A DNA stretch of 64,000 nucleotides. It comes from Eubacteriales bacterium (lineage in GTDB: Bacteria; Bacillota; Clostridia; Oscillospirales; CAG-272). The notes beneath the pieces are model-generated. The model saw only the letters and a list, made by a program, of their open reading frames with translations. It did not search any database and was not told the DNA's origin. Position numbers and translations under genes: made by a program. Position 1 is the stretch's first letter. Every line of letters begins with the position of its first letter. Location: positions 19,432-83,431 of the forward strand of contig JBJDZD010000141.1 of NCBI GenBank assembly GCA_051867815.1, in the 5' to 3' direction. Shown in pieces: positions 2,797 to 35,312 of the stretch.

Positions 2797-5034
2797 TCAA
2801 ATATCAATGCCTATTTGCATTTTGTCGATGTCCTTTTCGGCTAAAAGAACGGGTGTTGCCGGAATTTTGGTCTTTTTGTAGCCCTTGGTGGATTCGATCC
2901 TGTCGTCGAAGTGTGCCAGAACCTCACGAACCGTCGCGCCCTTCTTGAGCAGGATCAACTGAGAGCCTGCCGCGGTGCGCGTGGTCTTGAGGGGAAAGAG
3001 GGATGTCGATATGACGATGGCGCGATCGGCACTTGAGATGATGAGCAGTTCAAATGCATTTTTGTGTTCTTCAAAGATGCCGACGATGGGTGAGACCGTC
3101 GAGAACGCGCCCGTCATCTTGCGGCGCGTGCCCTTGACGGCGTATGCCGAGAGGGGAACCTTCACGCCCTTGCCGTTTTCAAAGACGAAGACCATGTTTC
3201 GCTTGTCGTCCCAATCCTTATCATCGCGGATGAATATCGGCTTTTCGCCGTCGTCGAATTTCAGCTTGGCAGGGAGGAATTCACCCATTTCGCTTGCTTT
3301 GCAAACGCCGAAATCCGATGCCTTGAAGCGGTAGAGTTGGGCTTTGTTGGTGAAGACGGCAAATTCGGAGATGTTTTCACCGTCAAACTCGGCAATGAGG
3401 CGGTCGCCGTCTTTAAGACGCTGTTCGTCGTTGCCGCGGAGCGATTTGTCCGTGATCTTCTTGAAGTATCCTTCTGCCGTGAGGAAGAAATGAGCAGTGA
3501 AATTTTCAATATGCTCCTCGGGACGGTAAACGTCAATGCTTTCCGCGTTTATAATGGTCGAGCGGCGAGGCTGACCGTACTTCTTCTTGATCTCGGCAAG
3601 CTGTTTTGCAATCAGGCGCTTCATCTTGATCTCGTCCGCAAGAGTTTCCTCCAGGTCAGCGATCTCGCCTTGAAGCGAATCTATCTCGTTGATGCGGTTG
3701 ATCAGATATTCGCGGTTGAGGTAACGCAGCTTGATCTCGGCAATGTATTCCGCCTGCCTTTCGTCAATGGAGAAGCCCTTGCAGAGGTTTGAAATGACCT
3801 CGCTCTCCTTTTGCGTGTTGCGGATGATCTTTATCGCCTTGTCGATGTCGAGCAGTATTTTACCCAGACCGAGCAAGAGGTGGAGCTTATCCTTCTTTTT
3901 GTTAAGCTCAAAGGTCAGCTCGCGCGTCAGACAGCCCTTGCGGAAGTTTATCCATTCCTTCAAGAGGGGCAATACTCCGAGCTGAACGGGCGAGGAATTT
4001 ATGATTACGTTGAAATTGCAGGAAAAATTATCCTCAAGAGCCGTTGACTTGAAGAGCTTGAGCATGACCTTGTCAGGCTCTGCGCCGCGGCGCAGGTCAA
4101 GCGTGAGCTTGAAGCCGGAGAGGTCGATCTCATCGCGGAAGTCAACCACGTCGCGAAGCTGATTTGACTTCATCATCTCCGCAATCTTTTTCATGATGAT
4201 CTCAATGGTGGTCGAATAGGGGATCTCAAGGATGTCTATGCAGTTTGCCGCTTTATCGTAGCGGTATTTGGCGCGAATCTTGACCGGACCTTCGCCCGTT
4301 TCGTAAACGCGGCGCATGGTGTCGCGGTCGTATATTATCTCGCCGCCACCCGGAAAATCCGGTGCCGGCATGATATCGAGCAGCTCGTCCACCGTCAGCT
4401 TCGGAGATTTGAGAAGCGCGATTGTTGCATCGCAGACCTCCGAAAGATTGAAGGGCGCTATTCTTGAAGCCATACCGACCGCGATACCCATATTGGGCGT
4501 TACGAGAATGTTCGGGAAGGTCGTGGGGAGCAGAGCCGGCTCCTTCATGGTGTTGTCGTAGTTGTCGATCATTTCAACGGCATCCTTGTCGATGCCGACG
4601 AACAGCTCCGATGCAAATTTATCCAGCCTTACCTCGGTATAACGCGAAGCGGCCGTTGCCATGCTTGAGCTGTATTGCTTACCGAACGAGCCTTTGGAAT
4701 CAACGAAGGGGTGGAGAAGCGCCGCATAGTCGCTCGTAAGACGCACCATGGTATCGTATATCGCGGCATCACCGTGGGGGTTCAGACGCATGGTCTGACC
4801 GACGACGTTCGCGCTCTTCGTCCTTGGACCGGAGAGCAGACCCATTTTATACATCGTATAGAGCAGCTTGCGGTGTGAGGGCTTGAAGCCGTCGATCTCG
4901 GGGATCGCACGCGAGACGATAACGCTCATTACGTAGGGCATATAGTTTTTTTCTATCGTTTCGGTTATGGGTTGATCCTTGGCAGGTGCAGGGGGAAGCG
5001 CCTCGGTGATTTCCGCTTTTTTCTTTCTTGCCAT
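2797..5034 (-). CDS. Type IIA DNA topoisomerase subunit A (ParC/GyrA family, ParC-like length)
   Basis: The 745-aa product carries PEIDGFKPSHRKLLYTMYKMG, NPHGDAAIYDTMVRLTS and the catalytic-Tyr context AASRYTEVRL. No GyrA-box (QRRGGKG-like) was seen in the C-terminal region. Confidence 0.85.
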   Translation of the reverse strand: MARKKKAEITEALPPAPAKDQPITETIEKNYMPYVMSVIVSRAIPEIDGFKPSHRKLLYTMYKMGLLSGPRTKSANVVGQTMRLNPHGDAAIYDTMVRLTSDYAALLHPFVDSKGSFGKQYSSSMATAASRYTEVRLDKFASELFVGIDKDAVEMIDNYDNTMKEPALLPTTFPNILVTPNMGIAVGMASRIAPFNLSEVCDATIALLKSPKLTVDELLDIMPAPDFPGGGEIIYDRDTMRRVYETGEGPVKIRAKYRYDKAANCIDILEIPYSTTIEIIMKKIAEMMKSNQLRDVVDFRDEIDLSGFKLTLDLRRGAEPDKVMLKLFKSTALEDNFSCNFNVIINSSPVQLGVLPLLKEWINFRKGCLTRELTFELNKKKDKLHLLLGLGKILLDIDKAIKIIRNTQKESEVISNLCKGFSIDERQAEYIAEIKLRYLNREYLINRINEIDSLQGEIADLEETLADEIKMKRLIAKQLAEIKKKYGQPRRSTIINAESIDVYRPEEHIENFTAHFFLTAEGYFKKITDKSLRGNDEQRLKDGDRLIAEFDGENISEFAVFTNKAQLYRFKASDFGVCKASEMGEFLPAKLKFDDGEKPIFIRDDKDWDDKRNMVFVFENGKGVKVPLSAYAVKGTRRKMTGAFSTVSPIVGIFEEHKNAFELLIISSADRAIVISTSLFPLKTTRTAAGSQLILLKKGATVREVLAHFDDRIESTKGYKKTKIPATPVLLAEKDIDKMQIGIDI

Positions 5035-30544: not shown

Positions 30545-30946
30545 ATGTATACAAGTGCTAAGCCCTATTTCTACGGAACCGGCAGAAGAAAGAAGTCCGT
30601 CGCTCGCGTAAGACTTTATCCCGGCACCGGTGCTATCACCATCAACGGCCGCGATATCAACGATTACTTCGGTCTTGAGACCATGAATCTCATCGTAAAC
30701 CAGCCCTTCGAGGTTACCGGCAACGCAGGTAAGTACGACATCGTTGCAAACGTAACCGGCGGCGGTTTCTCCGGCCAGGCAGGCGCTATCCGCCACGGCC
30801 TCGCTCGTGCACTCGTCCTCGCTGACGAAGCAAACAAGCCCGCCCTCAAGGCAGCAGGCTTCCTGACTCGCGATCCTCGTATGAAGGAAAGAAAGAAGTA
30901 CGGTCTCAAAGCCGCTCGTCGCGCAAGCCAGTTCTCCAAGAGATAA
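30545..30946 (+). CDS. rpsI: 30S ribosomal protein S9
   Basis: [15 protein letters not shown] is present and the C-terminus is [20 protein letters not shown] 30545 is preferred over TTG 30539 on RBS spacing. Confidence 0.97.
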
Positions 30947-30973
30947 TTTCCCGTCTCTTTGGTTTCATACAAA

Positions 30974-31003
30974 AGCGCTCCCGAATGTCGGGAGCGCTTT
31001 TTT
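30974..31003 (+). terminator. Intrinsic terminator after rpsI
   Basis: The 10-bp stem AGCGCTCCCG/CGGGAGCGCT has a 5-nt loop and is followed by TTTTTT. Confidence 0.85.
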
Positions 31004-31048
31004 CAACCGGCAGTTGGAAGGAAAATTTCCCCTCAAACCAATGCTCTA

Positions 31049-31077
31049 TTGCAAAATCGGTCATTTTGGTGTATAAT
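31049..31077 (+). promoter_or_regulatory. Sigma-A promoter of the glmM-LbH-glmS operon
   Basis: TTGCAA (31049-31054), a 17-nt spacer and TATAAT (31072-31077) lie ~45 nt upstream of GTG 31123. Confidence 0.7.
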
Positions 31078-31122
31078 GAATATTGTATGATAAATATTTT
31101 CCAATCGGAGGTTTGAATAATC

Positions 31123-32787
31123 GTGAAAATCAACGAGCAAATTGCTGCTTTAAGGAAAGAGACCGGCATAACTCAGGATGAGCTTGCCAAGGCAATAGGA
31201 GTTTCCAACCAGGCGGTGAGTAAATGGGAGAGTGGTCAGACCTGCCCCGACCTGCAATTCCTGCCTGCCATAGCTGATTATTTCGGCGTATCCATAGATT
31301 ATCTCATGGGCCGCGGCGAAACGAGCGGGGCGCCGCGCGTATCGCGCCGAGAATACGAGGACATCGTCGACGACCCCAACGCGCCGCCCTTTGAGAGCCG
31401 ATTCTTCGGAACGGACGGCTTCCGCGGTCAGGCCAACGTTGACGTTTCTGCCAAGCACGCATTTGAAATCGGCCGCTTCGTCGGCTGGTTCTATGCCAAT
31501 AAGCTTTCGGGCTGTAAGATCAAGAATTATCGTCCCAAAATCGTTATCGGTAAGGACACGCGCCGCTCGGGCTATATGCTCGAATACGCGCTTGCGGCAG
31601 GTCTTACCTGCTCCGGCGCGGATGCTTATATGCTCCACGTTACCACGACCCCGAGCGTTTCTTACGTCACCCGTCAGGAGGGTTTTGACTGCGGAATCAT
31701 GATCTCCGCATCCCATAACGCTTATTCCGACAACGGCATCAAGCTCATCAACCGCTACGGCGAGAAGATGGAAACGCGCACCCTTGCCTACCTTGAGAGC
31801 TATCTCGAGGGTCAGCTTAAGGCGCCCGATATCGTCAATTCAGAGCTTCCCCTGGCAACGGATAAGAATATCGGTGCGATAATAGACCACTCCGCCGGCA
31901 GAAACCGCTACATCGCCTACCTCATTTCAATCGCGGCTCATTCCTACAAGGGCCTGCGTATCGGCATTGACTGCTCAAACGGCGCTTCGTGGATGATCGC
32001 ACCCTCTGTCTTCAATGCGCTGGGTGCAAACACCTTCGTCATCAACGCTTCGCCCGACGGAACGAATATCAACCGCGATGCCGGCTCGACACATATAGAC
32101 GTCCTCAGAAATCACGTTCGCGCAAATCATCTTGATGTCGGCTTCGCCTTTGACGGTGATGCGGACAGATGCATTGCCGTTGACGAGAACGGAAACGTCG
32201 TTGACGGCGACGTGATCCTCTACATTCTCGGCAACCGCTTGAAGAATAAGAGAAATCTTACGAATAATCTCGTCGTTTCGACCGTTATGTCCAACAGTGG
32301 GTTGGCAAAATCCTTTGCAAAATGCGGTATCGACAATGTCTGCTCCGCAGTCGGCGACCAAAACGTATATGACATGATGTGTGACCGCAACAGCATGCTG
32401 GGCGGAGAGCAGTCCGGTCACATCATATTCCGCAAGTATGCAACCACGGGCGACGGAATTCTGACCGCCATCATGCTTCTTGAAGAAATGCGCGACAAAA
32501 AGCTTCCGCTCGGCAATCTTTACGACGGCCTTGAAATATTCCCCCAGATGCTCAAAAACGTTCACGTCAAGGACAAGGGCAGAGCGGCGAATGACGCCGA
32601 CGTTGCTGCCGAGGTTGAACGAATCAATGCGGAGCTTGACGGCGATGGCAGAGTTCTCGTCCGCAAGAGCGGTACGGAGCAGGTGGTTCGCATCATGGCA
32701 GAGGCGCGTGAGGAAACAAAATGCCGCGAATACATTGCGTCGATTGAAAAGATCATACGCGATAAGGGCTACGCAAGCGAGGAATGA
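31123..32787 (+). CDS. glmM: XRE-family HTH domain fused in frame to phosphoglucosamine mutase
   Basis: The N-terminal ~65 aa (ITQDELAKAIGVSNQAVSKWESGQTCPDLQFLPAIADYFGVSIDYLMG) form a Cro/C1-type HTH. From FGTDGFRGQAN onward the protein is a complete GlmM (GIMISASHNAYSDNGIK, DGDADRCIAVDENG, GGEQSGHIIF, RKSGTEQVVRIMAEA). It is a single 554-aa ORF with a GTG start after a GGAGG RBS. Confidence 0.8.
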   Translation: MKINEQIAALRKETGITQDELAKAIGVSNQAVSKWESGQTCPDLQFLPAIADYFGVSIDYLMGRGETSGAPRVSRREYEDIVDDPNAPPFESRFFGTDGFRGQANVDVSAKHAFEIGRFVGWFYANKLSGCKIKNYRPKIVIGKDTRRSGYMLEYALAAGLTCSGADAYMLHVTTTPSVSYVTRQEGFDCGIMISASHNAYSDNGIKLINRYGEKMETRTLAYLESYLEGQLKAPDIVNSELPLATDKNIGAIIDHSAGRNRYIAYLISIAAHSYKGLRIGIDCSNGASWMIAPSVFNALGANTFVINASPDGTNINRDAGSTHIDVLRNHVRANHLDVGFAFDGDADRCIAVDENGNVVDGDVILYILGNRLKNKRNLTNNLVVSTVMSNSGLAKSFAKCGIDNVCSAVGDQNVYDMMCDRNSMLGGEQSGHIIFRKYATTGDGILTAIMLLEEMRDKKLPLGNLYDGLEIFPQMLKNVHVKDKGRAANDADVAAEVERINAELDGDGRVLVRKSGTEQVVRIMAEAREETKCREYIASIEKIIRDKGYASEE

Positions 32788-33449
32788 TCATGGATTTTCA
32801 CGGTTTGTTTTCATATGAGCGCTCCATTCTCGGAGCAGAGATAGCGAAAGAGAAGTATCCTTGGGATATTCTTCCGAAGCTCAAGGCGCTCATCTCGGAG
32901 CTTGGAACCGCCCTGCCCGAGAGTGAATATGATAAAATAGGGGACGATGTTTGGGTATCGAAGTCGGCAACCGTTGTGCCGAGCGCGTCCATCACCGGAC
33001 CCTGCATAATATGTGCCGGCGCCGAGGTGCGCCATTGCGCTTATATCCGCGGTTCGGTTATAGTCGGCGAGGGCACCGTTGTCGGAAATTCAACGGAAAT
33101 AAAGAACGCGGTGCTTTTCGATAAGGTGCAGGTGCCGCATTATAACTACATCGGCGATTCGATACTCGGCGTCGGCGCGCATTTCGGCGCAGGGGCAGTC
33201 ACCTCGAACGTCAAGGGCAACAAGACCAATGTAAACGTTCACGACAAGGACGGCGACATTGCCACCGGCCTGCGAAAGTTCGGCGCACTCGTGGGTGACG
33301 GCGGAGAGATAGGCTGCGGCTGCGTGCTTAATCCCGGTACCGTTATAGGTAAAAATACTCAGATTTATCCGCTTTGCTCCGTCCGCGGAGTGATAGGCGA
33401 CGGAAAGATCTGCAAATCGGCTGATAATATTGTTAACAAGGAGATATAA
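32784..33449 (+). CDS. Stand-alone left-handed beta-helix (hexapeptide-repeat) transferase resembling the GlmU C-terminal acetyltransferase domain
   Basis: The hexapeptide repeats are IRGSVIVGEGTVVGNSTEIKNAVLFDKVQVPHYNYIGDSILGVGAHFGAGAVTSN. No N-terminal nucleotidyltransferase domain is present. An ATGA overlap links it to glmM. Confidence 0.6.
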   Translation: MIMDFHGLFSYERSILGAEIAKEKYPWDILPKLKALISELGTALPESEYDKIGDDVWVSKSATVVPSASITGPCIICAGAEVRHCAYIRGSVIVGEGTVVGNSTEIKNAVLFDKVQVPHYNYIGDSILGVGAHFGAGAVTSNVKGNKTNVNVHDKDGDIATGLRKFGALVGDGGEIGCGCVLNPGTVIGKNTQIYPLCSVRGVIGDGKICKSADNIVNKEI

Positions 33450-35279
33450 ATGTGCGGAATTATCGGATATACGGGTAAAGAAAAGGCAGTTCCAATACTG
33501 CTTAAGGGTCTTGATGCGCTCTCATACAGAGGCTACGACTCCGCAGGAATTTCGGTAAGCGGAGACGGGATCACAACCGTAAAGGCGAGCGGACGAATTG
33601 ATAAGCTCGTTGAAAAGATAGAAAATACCGTTATCGATGACGGCGGATGCGGCATAGGCCATTCGCGCTGGGCGACCCACGGTGCGCCCACGGACATCAA
33701 CGCCCATCCTCATTCAACACCGAATCTGACGCTCGTACACAACGGTATCATTGAAAACTACGCCGAGATCGGCGAGGAGCTTCGCGGCGAGGGCTATGAA
33801 TTTGTGTCCGAGACCGACACCGAGATTGCCGCTTGCCTCATCGACAAGCACTACAAAGCAACGCACGATCCTCGCGCGGCGATCTTTGCCGCAACTCGCG
33901 AGATCCGCGGCTCTTATGCCTTTGCGGTTATATTCAAGGATGAGCTTTCGCATATTTACGCCATTCGCCACGACAGCCCCCTTATCGTTGCCCGCGGAGC
34001 CGACGGCGCGTACGCCGCATCGGATATAACCGCGCTGGTCGGCAACGCCTCGACCTACTACCGCCCCGACAACGGCGTTCTTGCCGTTTTGGCTGACGGC
34101 GGTGTTTCCTTCTTCGGTGCGGACGGTAAAGCTCTCAAAATGCCTCTGTTCACCATAGACTGGGACGTTGCGCGTGCTCAGCGCGGCGGCTATGCCCATT
34201 TCATGATAAAAGAGATCCACGAGGAGCCGGAATCCATCCGTCAGACCTGCCGCCAGTATATCAAGGACGGTCTGCCTTATTTCGGTGAAACCATCCTCAC
34301 CACCGAATTTGTTCGCGGCATCAGCCGCATCCGTATAATTGCCTGCGGAACGGCAATGAATGCCGGTCTTATCGGTAAGAATTTCATTGAAAAGATCGCG
34401 GCGATCCCCGTCAGCGTTGAGATTGCAAGCGAATTCCGCTACAGAAAGCCCATCATCCACAAGGATGAGCTTGTAATATTCGTTTCTCAGTCCGGCGAGA
34501 CGGCGGACACCCTTGCCGCGCTCCGCTACGTTAAGTCGAGGGGCGTTCCGGCAATATCCGTCGTCAACGTTTTCGGCTCGACCATTGCGTGCGAATCCGA
34601 CACCGTTTTCTATACTTATGCCGGCCCCGAAATTGCCGTTGCAAGCACCAAGGCGTATCACGTTCAGTGCAGCGTTTTCTGCCTGCTTGCCGCGTATATG
34701 GGCATGCTTTCGGGAAATATCACGACCGATGAAGCCGCAAGGATTGCAGGTGTTATTTCGTGCGAAATTCCCGAGGTCGTAGCGACGGTGCTTGAGAGCG
34801 AGGCGCAGAGCGGAGAAGCGGCGCGGTCAATAAAGGACGCGGAGAACCTCTTCTACATCGGCAGATGCATGGACTACGATATCATCACCGAAGGCTCGCT
34901 CAAGCTCAAGGAAATATCCTACATCCACAGCGAGGCCTTTGCTGCAGGCGAGCTTAAGCACGGCACTATCTCACTTATCACCGACAATACGCCCGTCATA
35001 GCGGTTATTACCGAGCGCGAGGTCGCCGAAAAGACGATAACGGGCATGCGCGAGGTCGGCGCGAGAGGCGCAAAGCTGATTGCGGTCGTTTCCGATTACG
35101 TTGACAAGAACTGCGCCGTTGAAGCGGATATCAAGATCGTGCTTCCCGAGACGCCGGAGGGATTTGACGTATTCCCGGCAGTCACGGTAATGCAGCTGAT
35201 CGCATATCATACCTCCGTAGCGAGAGGAAATGACGTCGACAAGCCCAGAAATCTTGCAAAATCCGTAACTGTCGAATAA
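33450..35279 (+). CDS. glmS: Glutamine--fructose-6-phosphate aminotransferase
   Basis: MCGIIGY supplies the N-terminal nucleophile Cys. Two SIS domains are present (SQSGETADT), and the C-terminus is KPRNLAKSVTVE. The gene starts 1 nt after the previous stop. Confidence 0.95.
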   Translation: MCGIIGYTGKEKAVPILLKGLDALSYRGYDSAGISVSGDGITTVKASGRIDKLVEKIENTVIDDGGCGIGHSRWATHGAPTDINAHPHSTPNLTLVHNGIIENYAEIGEELRGEGYEFVSETDTEIAACLIDKHYKATHDPRAAIFAATREIRGSYAFAVIFKDELSHIYAIRHDSPLIVARGADGAYAASDITALVGNASTYYRPDNGVLAVLADGGVSFFGADGKALKMPLFTIDWDVARAQRGGYAHFMIKEIHEEPESIRQTCRQYIKDGLPYFGETILTTEFVRGISRIRIIACGTAMNAGLIGKNFIEKIAAIPVSVEIASEFRYRKPIIHKDELVIFVSQSGETADTLAALRYVKSRGVPAISVVNVFGSTIACESDTVFYTYAGPEIAVASTKAYHVQCSVFCLLAAYMGMLSGNITTDEAARIAGVISCEIPEVVATVLESEAQSGEAARSIKDAENLFYIGRCMDYDIITEGSLKLKEISYIHSEAFAAGELKHGTISLITDNTPVIAVITEREVAEKTITGMREVGARGAKLIAVVSDYVDKNCAVEADIKIVLPETPEGFDVFPAVTVMQLIAYHTSVARGNDVDKPRNLAKSVTVE

Positions 35280-35286
35280 TGAAAAT

Positions 35287-35312
35287 GCCCCGGTGCAAGC
35301 CGGGGCGTTTTT
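35287..35312 (+). terminator. Intrinsic terminator after glmS
   Basis: The stem GCCCCGG/CCGGGGC has a 6-nt loop and is followed by GTTTTT. Confidence 0.8.

What the first reader, a model, noticed from the sequence alone, without database searches (positions are those of the whole stretch)
31123..32787. In-frame fusion of an XRE-type HTH DNA-binding domain to phosphoglucosamine mutase GlmM
GlmM proteins normally begin about 5 residues before the FGTDGxRG motif. Here ~95 extra N-terminal residues form a canonical Cro/C1 HTH (QDELAKAIGVSNQAVSKWESGQTCPDLQFLPAIADYFGVSIDYLMG) plus a linker, in one uninterrupted 554-aa ORF. All GlmM active-site motifs are intact, including the phosphoserine loop SASHNAYSDNG. 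An enzyme-tethered repressor could tie transcription of the amino-sugar operon to enzyme state or substrate occupancy. An 11-bp palindrome GGAAAATTTCC (31020-31030) lies just upstream of the -35 box and is a candidate operator.
Basis: partly seen in the sequence, partly recalled or inferred. Interest (0 to 1): 0.55.

Follow-up and report, generated by a model that had tools for sequence, protein, structure and literature searches.

The report
DNA-binding domain fused to GlmM enzyme
A cell-wall precursor enzyme (phosphoglucosamine mutase) in a group of gut Clostridia carries a phage-repressor-type DNA-binding domain, and comparative evidence indicates this domain binds a conserved inverted repeat at the gene's own promoter, so the enzyme probably controls its own amino-sugar operon.

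Summary
ORF 31123-32787 (554 aa) encodes an HTH_3 domain (aa 1-62), a disordered 30-aa linker and a complete GlmM that scores above the TIGR01455 cutoff.

The fusion is not an artefact. About 115 of the 120 best database hits, down to 54% identity, have the same architecture, as do at least 22 GTDB species genomes, all Clostridia MAGs from gut or rumen. The HTH evolves more slowly than the enzyme body.

It is not conserved in relatives and occurs about once per 790 bp by chance.

The conserved element lies next to it: TTCAACCGGCAGTTGGAA (31002-31019). A second conserved block overlaps the -35 box.

In more distant HTH-GlmM genes the equivalent site is GCAAC-N5-GTTGC, about 100 bp upstream (13 of 21 exact; shuffles give at most 4). 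The recognition helix there reads VSRQ, whereas the window reads VSNQ with CCAAC/GTTGG. This residue aligns with Gln28 of 434 repressor.

The same HTH-plus-operator module precedes many unrelated genes, mostly membrane proteins. HTH-less GlmM relatives lack the site.

Best reading: a self-regulating, probably self-repressing, enzyme-regulator controlling glmM, a GlmU-like acetyltransferase gene and glmS. There is no glmS ribozyme. Metabolite sensing is untested. No published description was found.

The parts
30971..31003 (+). Intrinsic terminator of the upstream rplM-rpsI unit (AAAAGCGCTCCCGAATGTCGGGAGCGCTTTTTT). It isolates the glmM operon as its own transcription unit.
   Evidence: Read from the sequence. 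The upstream neighbour differs among relatives (rpsI, YebC, others).
31002..31019 (.). O1, the candidate primary operator: the inverted repeat TTCAAC-CGGCA-GTTGGAA. The clade consensus is TCCAAC-N5-GTTGGAA.
   Evidence: The spacing and the invariant right arm GTTGGAA hold in all 5 window-clade loci although dS is saturated. L085 has the perfect form TCCAACC-CAC-GGTTGGA. The same motif lies upstream of three unrelated N-type HTH genes. The analogous GCAAC-N5-GTTGC lies upstream of R-type HTH-GlmM genes.
31020..31030 (.). It is not conserved and probably not an operator in its own right.
31032..31052 (.). Second conserved block, CTCAAAC-N9-ATTGC. It also contains CCAAT-N5-ATTGC at 31038-31052 and overlaps the -35 hexamer by 4 bp. 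It is the candidate secondary operator or half-site.
   Evidence: TCAAACC and ATTG are invariant in the 5 close loci. The C(C/A)AAC-N9-ATTG(C/A) arrangement recurs in N-type loci L023, L026 and L040. R-type fusions have TCAAw-N5-GTTGs overlapping their -35.
31049..31077 (+). Sigma-70-type promoter: -35 TTGCAA (31049-31054), a 17-bp spacer, and the extended -10 TGTATAAT (31070-31077). The start of transcription is inferred at about 31084-31086.
   Evidence: Promoter scan, 10 of 12 matches. The promoter is conserved in relatives.
31100..31116 (.). O3, a possible third site: TCCAAT-CGGAG-GTTTGA, spanning the Shine-Dalgarno sequence (GGAGG, 31107-31111).
   Evidence: It is one of only 3 matches to TCCAAC-N5-GTTGGA (up to 2 mismatches) in the 64 kb. 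It is conserved in 4 of 5 close loci. It remains uncertain because conservation of the Shine-Dalgarno sequence explains part of it.
31123..31308 (+). HTH_3 (Cro/C1, XRE) DNA-binding domain, aa 1-62. The recognition helix is about aa 28-37 (S-N-Q-A-V-S-K-W-E; 31204-31233).
   Evidence: Pfam. AlphaFold2 predicts five helices with pLDDT 81-91. The domain aligns to the 434 and P22 c2 repressor N-terminal domains. Its dN of 0.014-0.068 is the lowest of the three regions.
31309..31398 (+). Flexible linker, aa 63-92.
   Evidence: No predicted secondary structure and pLDDT 43-69. Length and sequence vary across the family. dN is 0.10-0.40.
31399..32787 (+). Phosphoglucosamine mutase (GlmM) body, aa 93-554, plus the stop codon. 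The catalytic Ser197 is encoded at 31711-31713.
32784..33449 (+). 221-aa left-handed beta-helix (hexapeptide) acetyltransferase resembling the C-terminal half of archaeal-type GlmU. It is the probable GlcN-1-P N-acetyltransferase. Its start overlaps the glmM stop by 4 nt.
   Evidence: TIGR03992 positions 216-393, E 3e-42, below the cutoff because only half the model is covered. Pfam Hexapep and LbH. It follows the fusion in 22 of 25 related loci.
33450..35279 (+). glmS (glutamine--fructose-6-phosphate aminotransferase). It starts at the base after the stop codon of the acetyltransferase gene, so there is no room for a glmS ribozyme.
   Evidence: TIGR01135 674.7 bits. No Rfam match.
35287..35312 (+). 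Intrinsic terminator that closes the three-gene operon (GCCCCGGTGCAAGCCGGGGC followed by a T run).

Best explanation
The gene encodes a bifunctional protein: an active GlmM enzyme whose N-terminal 434/P22-repressor-like HTH binds inverted repeats at its own promoter.

The proposed binding sites are:
- O1, TTCAACCGGCAGTTGGAA, at 31002-31019;
- a second conserved block at 31032-31052 that overlaps the -35 hexamer;
- possibly a third site across the ribosome-binding site.

Through these sites the protein would regulate transcription of the operon HTH-glmM, a GlmU-like acetyltransferase gene and glmS. The most likely direction is repression, by occluding the -35 hexamer.

The GlmM body, a dimer in solved homologues, would supply the dimerisation that a 60-residue Cro/C1 domain needs to bind a two-fold symmetric site. 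The roughly 30-residue disordered linker would act as a tether.

The minimal consequence is feedback set by protein concentration, holding the level of the first three enzymes of UDP-GlcNAc synthesis steady in a lineage whose operon has no glmS ribozyme.

Shown by computation: the domain architecture, purifying selection on the HTH, the conserved sites, their covariation with the recognition helix, and their loss together with the HTH.
Inferred: DNA binding itself, the sign of regulation, dimer geometry, and any modulation by metabolites.
For: 1. The architecture is conserved. About 115 of 120 top hits, down to 54% identity, combine HTH_3 with PGM_PMM domains I-IV. At least 22 GTDB species genomes do the same.

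2. The HTH is under stronger constraint than the enzyme. dN is 0.014-0.068 for the HTH, 0.057-0.166 for GlmM and 0.10-0.40 for the linker, with dS saturated. Recognition-helix residues are 93-100% conserved.

3. Phylogenetic footprints in five loci at 79-95% protein identity show conserved blocks flanking and overlapping the -35 hexamer. The rest of the spacer is unalignable.

4. Among 21 distant fusion genes, unbiased enumeration of palindromes puts GCAAC-N5-GTTGC first, at 13 of 21 against a maximum of 4 in 200 shuffles. All 13 exact sites in 265 kb lie 99-131 bp upstream of the fusion start.

5. The recognition helix and the operator covary. Helices reading VSRQ go with G..C or G..A outer bases in 67 of 70 cases. 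Helices reading VSNQ go with C/T..G in 7 of 8 cases (1 more C..T) and never with G on the left (Fisher p about 7e-9, not corrected for phylogeny).

6. The variable residue, R/N29, aligns with Gln28 of 434 repressor and the invariant Q30 with Gln29. From my own knowledge of the 434 repressor-operator structures, these residues contact base pairs 1 and 2 of the ACAA half-site. The half-site here is [G/C]CAA.

7. The two HTH-less GlmM relatives (71% identity) have neither an HTH remnant nor the site. A fusion with a degenerate helix, VSVSSVSQWE, also lacks the site.

8. All three matches to the motif in the 64-kb window fall at this locus.

9. AlphaFold2 predicts a compact five-helix HTH, a disordered tether and a confident GlmM fold. 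GlmM is a dimer in crystals and in solution (PMC6368335).

10. The operon is closed by terminators on both sides and has no glmS ribozyme.
Against: - No binding experiment exists.
- Position alone does not fix the sign of regulation. A site centred near -43 that abuts the -35 hexamer is also where lambda cI activates PRM.
- The window's own O1 is imperfect: the left arm is TTCAAC rather than TCCAAC.
- The covariation rests on few independent evolutionary events. N-type sites were confirmed in only two protein contexts, GlmM and a bactofilin-like family.
- Many paralogous HTH proteins with identical recognition helices and near-identical operators exist, sometimes in one genome (L004 and L047; two genes in L055). 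A paralogue could therefore occupy the site, or cross-talk could be extensive.
- I could not check whether these genomes carry a second, plain glmM.
Confidence: 0.62

Rival explanations
1. Metabolite-sensing trigger enzyme. DNA binding by the HTH would be switched by the catalytic state of GlmM: occupancy by GlcN-6-P, GlcN-1-P or GlcN-1,6-bisP, or phosphorylation of Ser197. Operon transcription would then track amino-sugar supply, functionally replacing the glmS ribozyme.
For: - The regulated operon contains glmS and has no ribozyme.
- glmS lies directly downstream in 8 of 25 fusion loci, with no room for a ribozyme.
- The catalytic residues are all retained.
- Precedents exist in BirA, PutA, NadR and RbkR (PMC5397151).
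- At least two or three different HTH subtypes have been fused to GlmM, which suggests a benefit specific to this enzyme.
Against: - The tether is disordered, varies in length (about 20-60 aa) and evolves fast. It is a poor conduit for allostery.
- The same HTH-plus-operator module sits on dozens of unrelated proteins, mostly membrane proteins. The module does not need GlmM chemistry to work.
- Close relatives have dispensed with the HTH.
Confidence: 0.25
2. Positive autoregulator. The HTH-GlmM dimer bound just upstream of, or overlapping, the -35 hexamer would recruit RNA polymerase, as lambda cI does at OR2/PRM.
For: The secondary site is centred around -43 and O1 around -75. These are positions used by class II and class I activators.
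Against: - The window promoter already has a perfect extended -10 (TGTATAAT), a 4/6 match at -35 and a 17-bp spacer. Several relatives have near-consensus promoters, for example TTGACC-17-TATAAT in L007. Activation is not obviously needed.
- The half-site overlaps 4 of the 6 bases of the -35 hexamer.
Confidence: 0.12
3. The GlmM-like body is only a sensor or dimerisation domain of a dedicated regulator. A separate housekeeping GlmM would be encoded elsewhere in the genome.
For: - Whole genomes could not be inspected.
- Enzyme-derived sensor domains in regulators are common.
Against: - The protein scores above the glmM equivalog cutoff.
- All catalytic loops are invariant across the family.
- The gene is co-transcribed with glmS and a GlmU-like acetyltransferase gene.
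- HTH-less orthologues sit in the same gene pair.
Confidence: 0.08
4. Assembly, frameshift or annotation artefact that joins two separate genes.
For: None found.
Against: - The same in-frame fusion occurs in more than 100 protein clusters from NCBI, ENA, JGI and Logan assemblies.
- It occurs in 25 fetched loci, each with its own Shine-Dalgarno sequence and start codon.
Confidence: 0.01

Closest known systems
BirA (biotin protein ligase and bio-operon repressor), as a paradigm for enzymes that carry a DNA-binding domain
   Same: An N-terminal helix-turn-helix domain is fused to a metabolic enzyme of the pathway it regulates. It binds an inverted repeat that overlaps the pathway promoter. Binding to the operator requires a dimer.
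   Different: - BirA has a winged HTH, not a Cro/C1 HTH.
- BirA dimerises only when the reaction intermediate biotinyl-5'-AMP is bound, which is how sensing works. GlmM homologues are constitutive dimers and no effector is known here.
- The enzyme family is unrelated.
PutA, NadR and archaeal RbkR: other bifunctional enzyme-regulators ('trigger enzymes')
   Same: A single polypeptide combines catalysis with transcriptional control of the same pathway. RbkR was likewise found by comparative genomics, in lineages that lack the usual riboswitch (PMC5397151). That parallels the absence of a glmS ribozyme here.
   Different: - The DNA-binding folds differ for PutA (ribbon-helix-helix) and RbkR (winged helix).
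- The pathways differ.
- Those proteins have experimentally shown effectors; this one has none tested.
N-terminal domains of 434 repressor and P22 c2 repressor, and their operators
   Same: These are the best solved-structure matches to aa 1-64 (E about 1e-7 to 1e-8). The alignment is residue-for-residue: N29 with Gln28, Q30 with Gln29, K34 with Gln33. The operator half-site [G/C]CAA resembles the 434 half-site ACAA, and the outer base covaries with the residue aligned to Gln28.
   Different: - Operator geometry: 15 bp (xCAAC-N5-GTTGx) here against 14 bp for 434.
- Dimerisation would come from an enzyme body rather than a phage repressor C-terminal domain.
- It is chromosomal and not part of a prophage switch.
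glmS ribozyme (Rfam RF00234) and other controls on GlcN-6-P synthesis
   Same: It would act on the same target, glmS expression and amino-sugar homeostasis in Firmicutes.
   Different: It is a protein and DNA mechanism rather than a self-cleaving RNA. No ribozyme was detected in the window or in related loci. Functional replacement is an inference.
Membrane-tethered and other XRE-family one-component regulators of Clostridia that carry the same HTH subtype
   Same: They have the same recognition helix, VSRQ[SA]VSKWE. They have the same GCAAC-N5-GTTG[C/A] site 80-140 bp upstream of their own start codon.
   Different: Their C-terminal parts are 1-8 predicted transmembrane segments, lipase-like, TPR or bactofilin-like domains rather than GlmM. 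I found no published characterisation of this group.

Membership tests
Phosphoglucosamine mutase GlmM (NCBIfam TIGR01455; alpha-D-phosphohexomutase superfamily) | A whole-protein score above the curated equivalog cutoff | tested here: met
   483.8 bits against a cutoff of 447.55, covering model positions 1-441 of 442.
Phosphoglucosamine mutase GlmM (NCBIfam TIGR01455; alpha-D-phosphohexomutase superfamily) | Four-domain PGM_PMM architecture with the catalytic phosphoserine loop, the Mg-binding DxDxDR loop, the sugar-binding GEQSGH loop and the phosphate-binding RxSGTE loop | tested here: met
   Pfam domains I-IV. S197, D344/D346/D348/R349, E429/S431/H433 and R514/S516/T518/E519 are invariant in 42 sequences. 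The protein aligns end to end with B. subtilis GlmM, PDB 7OJR. The AlphaFold2 fold is confident.
Phosphoglucosamine mutase GlmM (NCBIfam TIGR01455; alpha-D-phosphohexomutase superfamily) | Catalysis of GlcN-6-P to GlcN-1-P, and being the cell's GlmM | not testable with these tools
   The only support is operon context with glmS and a GlmU-like acetyltransferase gene.
Cro/C1 (XRE, HTH_3) DNA-binding domain | Pfam PF01381 match above the gathering score, and a five-helix fold | tested here: met
   66.5 bits against a cutoff of 23. Helices at 3-14, 18-25, 29-37, 44-54 and 58-61 with pLDDT 81-91. Matches to 434 and P22 c2 repressors.
Cro/C1 (XRE, HTH_3) DNA-binding domain | Sequence-specific binding to a two-fold symmetric operator | tested here: inconclusive
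   The comparative evidence is strong: conserved inverted repeats, covariation with the recognition helix, and co-loss with the HTH. There is no binding assay.
Trigger enzymes (bifunctional enzyme plus transcription regulator, e.g. BirA, PutA, NadR, RbkR) | One polypeptide with an intact catalytic domain and a DNA-binding domain | tested here: met
Trigger enzymes (bifunctional enzyme plus transcription regulator, e.g. BirA, PutA, NadR, RbkR) | It regulates genes of its own pathway | tested here: inconclusive
   The candidate operators lie at the promoter of glmM, the acetyltransferase gene and glmS. No other sites occur in the 64-kb window. The rest of the genome was not available.
Trigger enzymes (bifunctional enzyme plus transcription regulator, e.g. 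BirA, PutA, NadR, RbkR) | Regulatory activity is switched by substrate, product or catalytic state | not testable with these tools
   The disordered, variable linker does not obviously support coupling.

The most novel reading that the evidence does not exclude
HTH-GlmM would be a genuine metabolite-responsive trigger enzyme that replaces the glmS ribozyme as the GlcN-6-P homeostat in Oscillospirales-type Clostridia.

It would also be one instance of a portable self-regulation cassette. The cassette is a Cro/C1 HTH plus its cognate xCAAC-N5-GTTGx operator. It would follow a simple one-residue, one-base recognition code (Arg with G, Asn with C). Evolution would have grafted it repeatedly onto enzymes and membrane proteins, including at least two independent grafts onto GlmM.
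Probability: 0.22. Interest if true: 0.75.

Novelty: new member of a known kind. Interest (0 to 1): 0.58.

Why it matters
GlmM sits at the entry to peptidoglycan and teichoic-acid precursor synthesis. Known controls on this step in Firmicutes are the glmS ribozyme and GlmM's interaction with the c-di-AMP cyclase. A GlmM that binds DNA at its own promoter would be a third, protein-based layer of control, in abundant but uncultured gut and rumen Clostridia.

The prediction is unusually concrete. It names a defined operator, a defined recognition-helix residue, and a swap experiment (N29R with CCAAC changed to GCAAC). It can therefore be tested quickly in vitro or in a heterologous host.

The broader pattern may be of general use for regulon prediction and as a compact synthetic-biology part. 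The pattern is that the same HTH-plus-operator module precedes many membrane proteins and some enzymes.

There is also a warning for annotation. These proteins are labelled only 'phosphoglucosamine mutase', and some gene models start about 36 residues late and so truncate the HTH.

Tried and rejected
1. Rejected: it is not conserved and is expected by chance.

2. The intragenic match TCCAACAGTGGGTTGGC at 32290-32306 as an internal operator. Rejected: it encodes the conserved SNSGLA motif, and its synonymous positions differ in L084, L085 and L086.

3. A glmS ribozyme or other Rfam element in the leader or between genes. None was found at gathering thresholds in the window or in 12 related loci. 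None was found at E <= 1 across 30900-33600.

4. Counting fusion families with the 50%-identity representative library, using the N-terminal 135-aa profile. Uninformative: the top hits were multi-HTH repeat proteins and short fragments, and full-length fusions were evidently absorbed into other clusters.

5. Literature. Five full-text searches found no description of an HTH-GlmM fusion, nor of a GCAAC/GTTGC XRE operator.

6. R-type sites (GCAAC-N5-GTTGC) elsewhere in the window. One match with one mismatch, at chance level.

7. Inverted repeats upstream of the two fusions with atypical recognition helices (L087 and L089). The tool reported none, and L087 holds only 123 bp of upstream sequence.

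8. Assembly artefact. Rejected.
Full report
**1.

The window contains one open reading frame from 31123 to 32787 on the + strand. It is 554 aa, starts with GTG, and has a GGAGG Shine-Dalgarno sequence 11 nt upstream.

Pfam places an HTH_3 (Cro/C1) domain at aa 7-61 (E 2e-18) and the four PGM_PMM domains at aa 94-542. The protein passes the curated NCBIfam equivalog model for GlmM, TIGR01455, with 483.8 bits against a cutoff of 447.55. Residue 93 aligns with residue 3 of B. subtilis GlmM (PDB 7OJR), so about 92 residues are extra.

The catalytic Ser197 loop, the DxDxDR metal loop, the GEQSGH loop and the RxSGTE loop are invariant in 42 aligned homologues.

AlphaFold2, run with that alignment, gives three parts:
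- a five-helix N-terminal domain (pLDDT 81-91);
- an unstructured stretch at aa 62-93 (pLDDT 43-69);
- a confident GlmM fold.

**2. The fusion is not an artefact and not strain-specific**

Of the 120 best hits among 5.8 billion clustered proteins, about 115 carry both PF01381 and the PGM_PMM domains. They are 536-579 aa long and reach down to 54% identity.

A scan of one genome per GTDB species returned at least 22 further fusion genes. All come from uncultured Clostridia of gut or rumen origin: Ruminococcus, Acutalibacteraceae, Christensenellaceae, Ructibacterium and bins labelled 'Eubacteriales'. Each fetched gene has its own start codon and an uninterrupted frame.

The window's exact protein is NCBI MGM9643163.1, 'MAG: phosphoglucosamine mutase [Eubacteriales bacterium]'. 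Near-identical copies come from independent assemblies.

Among five loci at 79-95% protein identity, synonymous sites are saturated. Even so, the HTH has the lowest non-synonymous divergence: dN 0.014-0.068, against 0.057-0.166 for the enzyme and 0.10-0.40 for the linker. The recognition-helix residues are 93-100% conserved across the family.

**3. Operon context**

An intrinsic terminator at 30971-31003 ends the upstream rplM-rpsI unit.

A strong sigma-70-type promoter follows: TTGCAA (31049-54), a 17-bp spacer, and TGTATAAT (31070-77).

The glmM stop overlaps the start of a 221-aa hexapeptide-repeat protein. That protein matches the acetyltransferase half of archaeal-type GlmU (TIGR03992 positions 216-393, E 3e-42).

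glmS begins at the base after that gene's stop codon, and a terminator follows at 35287-35312.

No Rfam family matches the leader or the gene junctions, so there is no glmS ribozyme. None was found in 12 related loci either.

The acetyltransferase-like gene follows the fusion in 22 of 25 related loci, and glmS follows it in 8 of 25. The upstream neighbour varies between loci.

**4. The real candidate operator**

I aligned the upstream regions of the window and four close relatives. This shows conserved blocks in an otherwise unalignable spacer:
- TCCAAC-N5-GTTGGAA. In the window this is TTCAACCGGCAGTTGGAA at 31002-31019. L085 has the perfect form TCCAACC-CAC-GGTTGGA.
- CTCAAACCAATGxTxTATTGC at 31032-31052, which overlaps the -35 hexamer.
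- TCCAATCGGAGGTTTGA at 31100-31116, across the Shine-Dalgarno sequence, in 4 of 5 loci.

It is not conserved, and such 5+1+5 palindromes occur about once per 790 bp in the window.

In the whole 64 kb, TCCAAC-N5-GTTGGA with up to two mismatches occurs three times, always at this locus. The intragenic copy is explained by the codons for SNSGLA and is not kept at synonymous positions.

**5. Distant fusions have an equivalent site**

In 21 more distant HTH-GlmM loci, I enumerated every 5-Nx-5 palindrome in the 260 bp upstream, without assuming a motif. GCAAC-N5-GTTGC ranks first, present in 13 of 21. The next-ranked patterns are extensions of the same site. The maximum in 200 shuffles is 4.

All 13 exact sites in 265 kb of these loci lie 99-131 bp upstream of the fusion start. 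Most of the remaining loci have 7 of 8 core matches.

A second, weaker repeat (TCAAw-N5-GTTGs) lies 22 bp downstream, centre to centre. Its right arm overlaps the -35 hexamer.

**6. The recognition helix and the operator covary**

Distant fusions read V-S-R-Q-S/A-V-S-K-W-E and have GCAAC...GTTGC. The window clade reads V-S-N-Q-A-V-S-K-W-E and has CCAAC...GTTGG.

Across all 87 HTH genes fetched:
- Arg-type helices pair with a G at the left outer base in 67 of 70 sites.
- Asn-type helices pair with it in 0 of 8.
- Asn-type sites end in GTTGG in 7 of 8 cases, against 1 of 70 for Arg-type.

Fisher p is about 1e-8, not corrected for shared ancestry.

The HTH aligns without gaps through the recognition helix to 434 repressor. 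N29 aligns with Gln28, Q30 with Gln29 and K34 with Gln33. From my own knowledge of the 434 repressor-operator crystal structures, Gln28 contacts base pair 1 and Gln29 base pair 2 of the ACAA half-site. Here the half-site is [G/C]CAA, and it is base 1 that changes with residue 29. I did not test this structural reading.

**7. Loss of the HTH goes with loss of the site**

The two closest GlmMs without an HTH are P0009 and P0006, at 71-72% identity in the enzyme part. Each has a normal ribosome-binding site and start codon. Neither has an HTH remnant or the motif upstream. Both keep the acetyltransferase-like gene downstream.

A fusion whose helix has degenerated to VSVSSVSQWE also lacks the site.

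**8. The module is generic**

The genome scan also pulled in about 58 non-GlmM genes with the same HTH subtype. About 50 of them have GCAAC-N5-GTTG[C/A] 80-140 bp upstream of their own start.

Their C-terminal parts are mostly 1-8 predicted transmembrane segments (52 of 59). A few are lipase-like, TPR, FtsK-gamma or bactofilin-like domains.

Three Asn-type genes, all HTH plus a bactofilin-like domain, have CCAAC-N5-GTTGGAA followed by C(C/A)AAC-N9-ATTG(C/A). This is the same layout as in the window.

So the HTH and its operator behave as a portable self-regulation cassette, and GlmM is one of its partners.

This cuts two ways. It strengthens the inference that the HTH binds that site. It weakens the inference that GlmM chemistry is needed for the switch. 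It also raises the possibility of cross-talk between paralogues that share a helix and an operator, for example L004 and L047 from one MAG.

**9. Evolution**

The window's HTH is 63-68% identical to Asn-type HTHs of unrelated proteins, but only about 35-49% identical over the N-terminal 135 residues to the Arg-type GlmM fusions.

In a neighbour-joining tree of the enzyme part, the Asn-type window clade and the two HTH-less proteins form one subclade. That subclade is nested among HTH-bearing lineages (no support values).

A third helix type, VSDKAVSRWE, with a longer linker occurs in P0007.

The simplest reading is loss followed by re-acquisition, or replacement, of the cassette. That would mean recurrent fusion of HTHs to GlmM.

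**10. Mechanism**

I commit to self-regulation of the operon (glmM, the acetyltransferase gene and glmS) by HTH-GlmM bound at O1 and at the block overlapping the -35 hexamer.

Repression is the most likely direction, for two reasons:
- The half-site covers 4 of the 6 bases of the -35 hexamer.
- The promoter looks strong on its own.

The enzyme body would supply dimerisation, since GlmM is a dimer in crystals and in solution (PMC6368335).

Activation from about -43 cannot be excluded. Control by substrate or phosphorylation state is possible but untested. The disordered, variable tether does not favour it.

**11. Comparison and novelty**

Functionally this belongs with the bifunctional enzyme-regulators BirA, PutA, NadR and RbkR (PMC5397151). 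Its DNA-binding domain belongs with the 434/P22 repressor class.

Five literature searches found no description of an HTH-GlmM protein or of this operator. Databases label the proteins simply 'phosphoglucosamine mutase'.

I rate it a new member of a known kind, of moderate to good interest, with a sharply testable prediction.

Noticed in passing
Loci L027-L082, fetched; for example L027:5910-5924, L038:5911-5925, L062:595-609: About 50 non-GlmM genes share two features. They encode an HTH_3 with recognition helix VSRQ[SA]VSKWE, and they have GCAAC-N5-GTTG[C/A] 80-140 bp upstream of their own start. Most encode an HTH plus 1-8 predicted transmembrane segments and have no Pfam domain in the C-terminal part. 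This looks like a large, apparently undescribed family of self-regulated, membrane-tethered XRE regulators in Clostridia and Bacilli. Many also have an extra GCAAC half-site between the -35 and -10 hexamers.
   Followed up: partly
L039:5772-7397, L053:6001-7602, L058:6001-7683: The same HTH subtype is fused, through one predicted transmembrane segment, to a lipase-like domain (Pfam Lip_C, E down to 3.5e-59). This is another enzyme partner of the cassette. L058 has GCAACCGGCGGTTGC 109 bp upstream.
   Followed up: partly
L085:250-424: In one close relative, about 100 nt are inserted between the conserved promoter and the start codon. The insert contains a GC-rich hairpin followed by a T run (CGAGGGGCG...CGCCCCTCGCTCTTTT), which resembles a leader terminator or attenuator. 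It has no Rfam match. The O3/TCCAAT element is absent in this locus.
   Followed up: partly
L084:5880-5990: The promoter region appears duplicated. There are two copies of TGTATAAT, each preceded by similar sequence (TTGCAATATTAT...TTTTrGTGTATAAT), upstream of the fusion gene.
   Followed up: no
Cluster of P0108: MBQ3549616.1 (502 aa) and MBO5746564.1 (501 aa): Some NCBI gene models of these fusions start about 36 residues downstream of the true start. This cuts off half of the HTH and hides the fusion from domain-architecture surveys.
   Followed up: no
L087:124-1854 (P0007) and L089:3001-4659 (P0023): Two further HTH-GlmM variants were found. One has a different recognition helix (VSDKAVSRWE) and a linker of about 60 aa. 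The other has a degenerate helix (VSVSSVSQWE), a GC-rich upstream region, and no GCAAC site or obvious promoter. Both may bear on gain, turnover or decay of the HTH.
   Followed up: partly
window 32784-32787 and 33449-33450: The junctions are very tight. The glmM stop and the start of the acetyltransferase gene overlap by 4 nt (ATGA), and glmS starts at the base after the preceding stop codon. This suggests translational coupling of the three genes.
   Followed up: no
window 32290-32306: TCCAACAGTGGGTTGGC, a near-perfect copy of the operator motif, lies inside glmM in the codons for SNSGLA. It is identical in L083 but not kept at synonymous sites in L084, L085 and L086. I judge it coincidental.
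   Followed up: yes
L008:3047-3118 (+) and 3139-3220 (-): Two Gut-1 sRNA matches (RF01706; 59 and 52 bits against a gathering score of 50) lie next to a tRNA cluster, about 3 kb upstream of an HTH-GlmM gene in a goat-colon Ruminococcus MAG.
   Followed up: no
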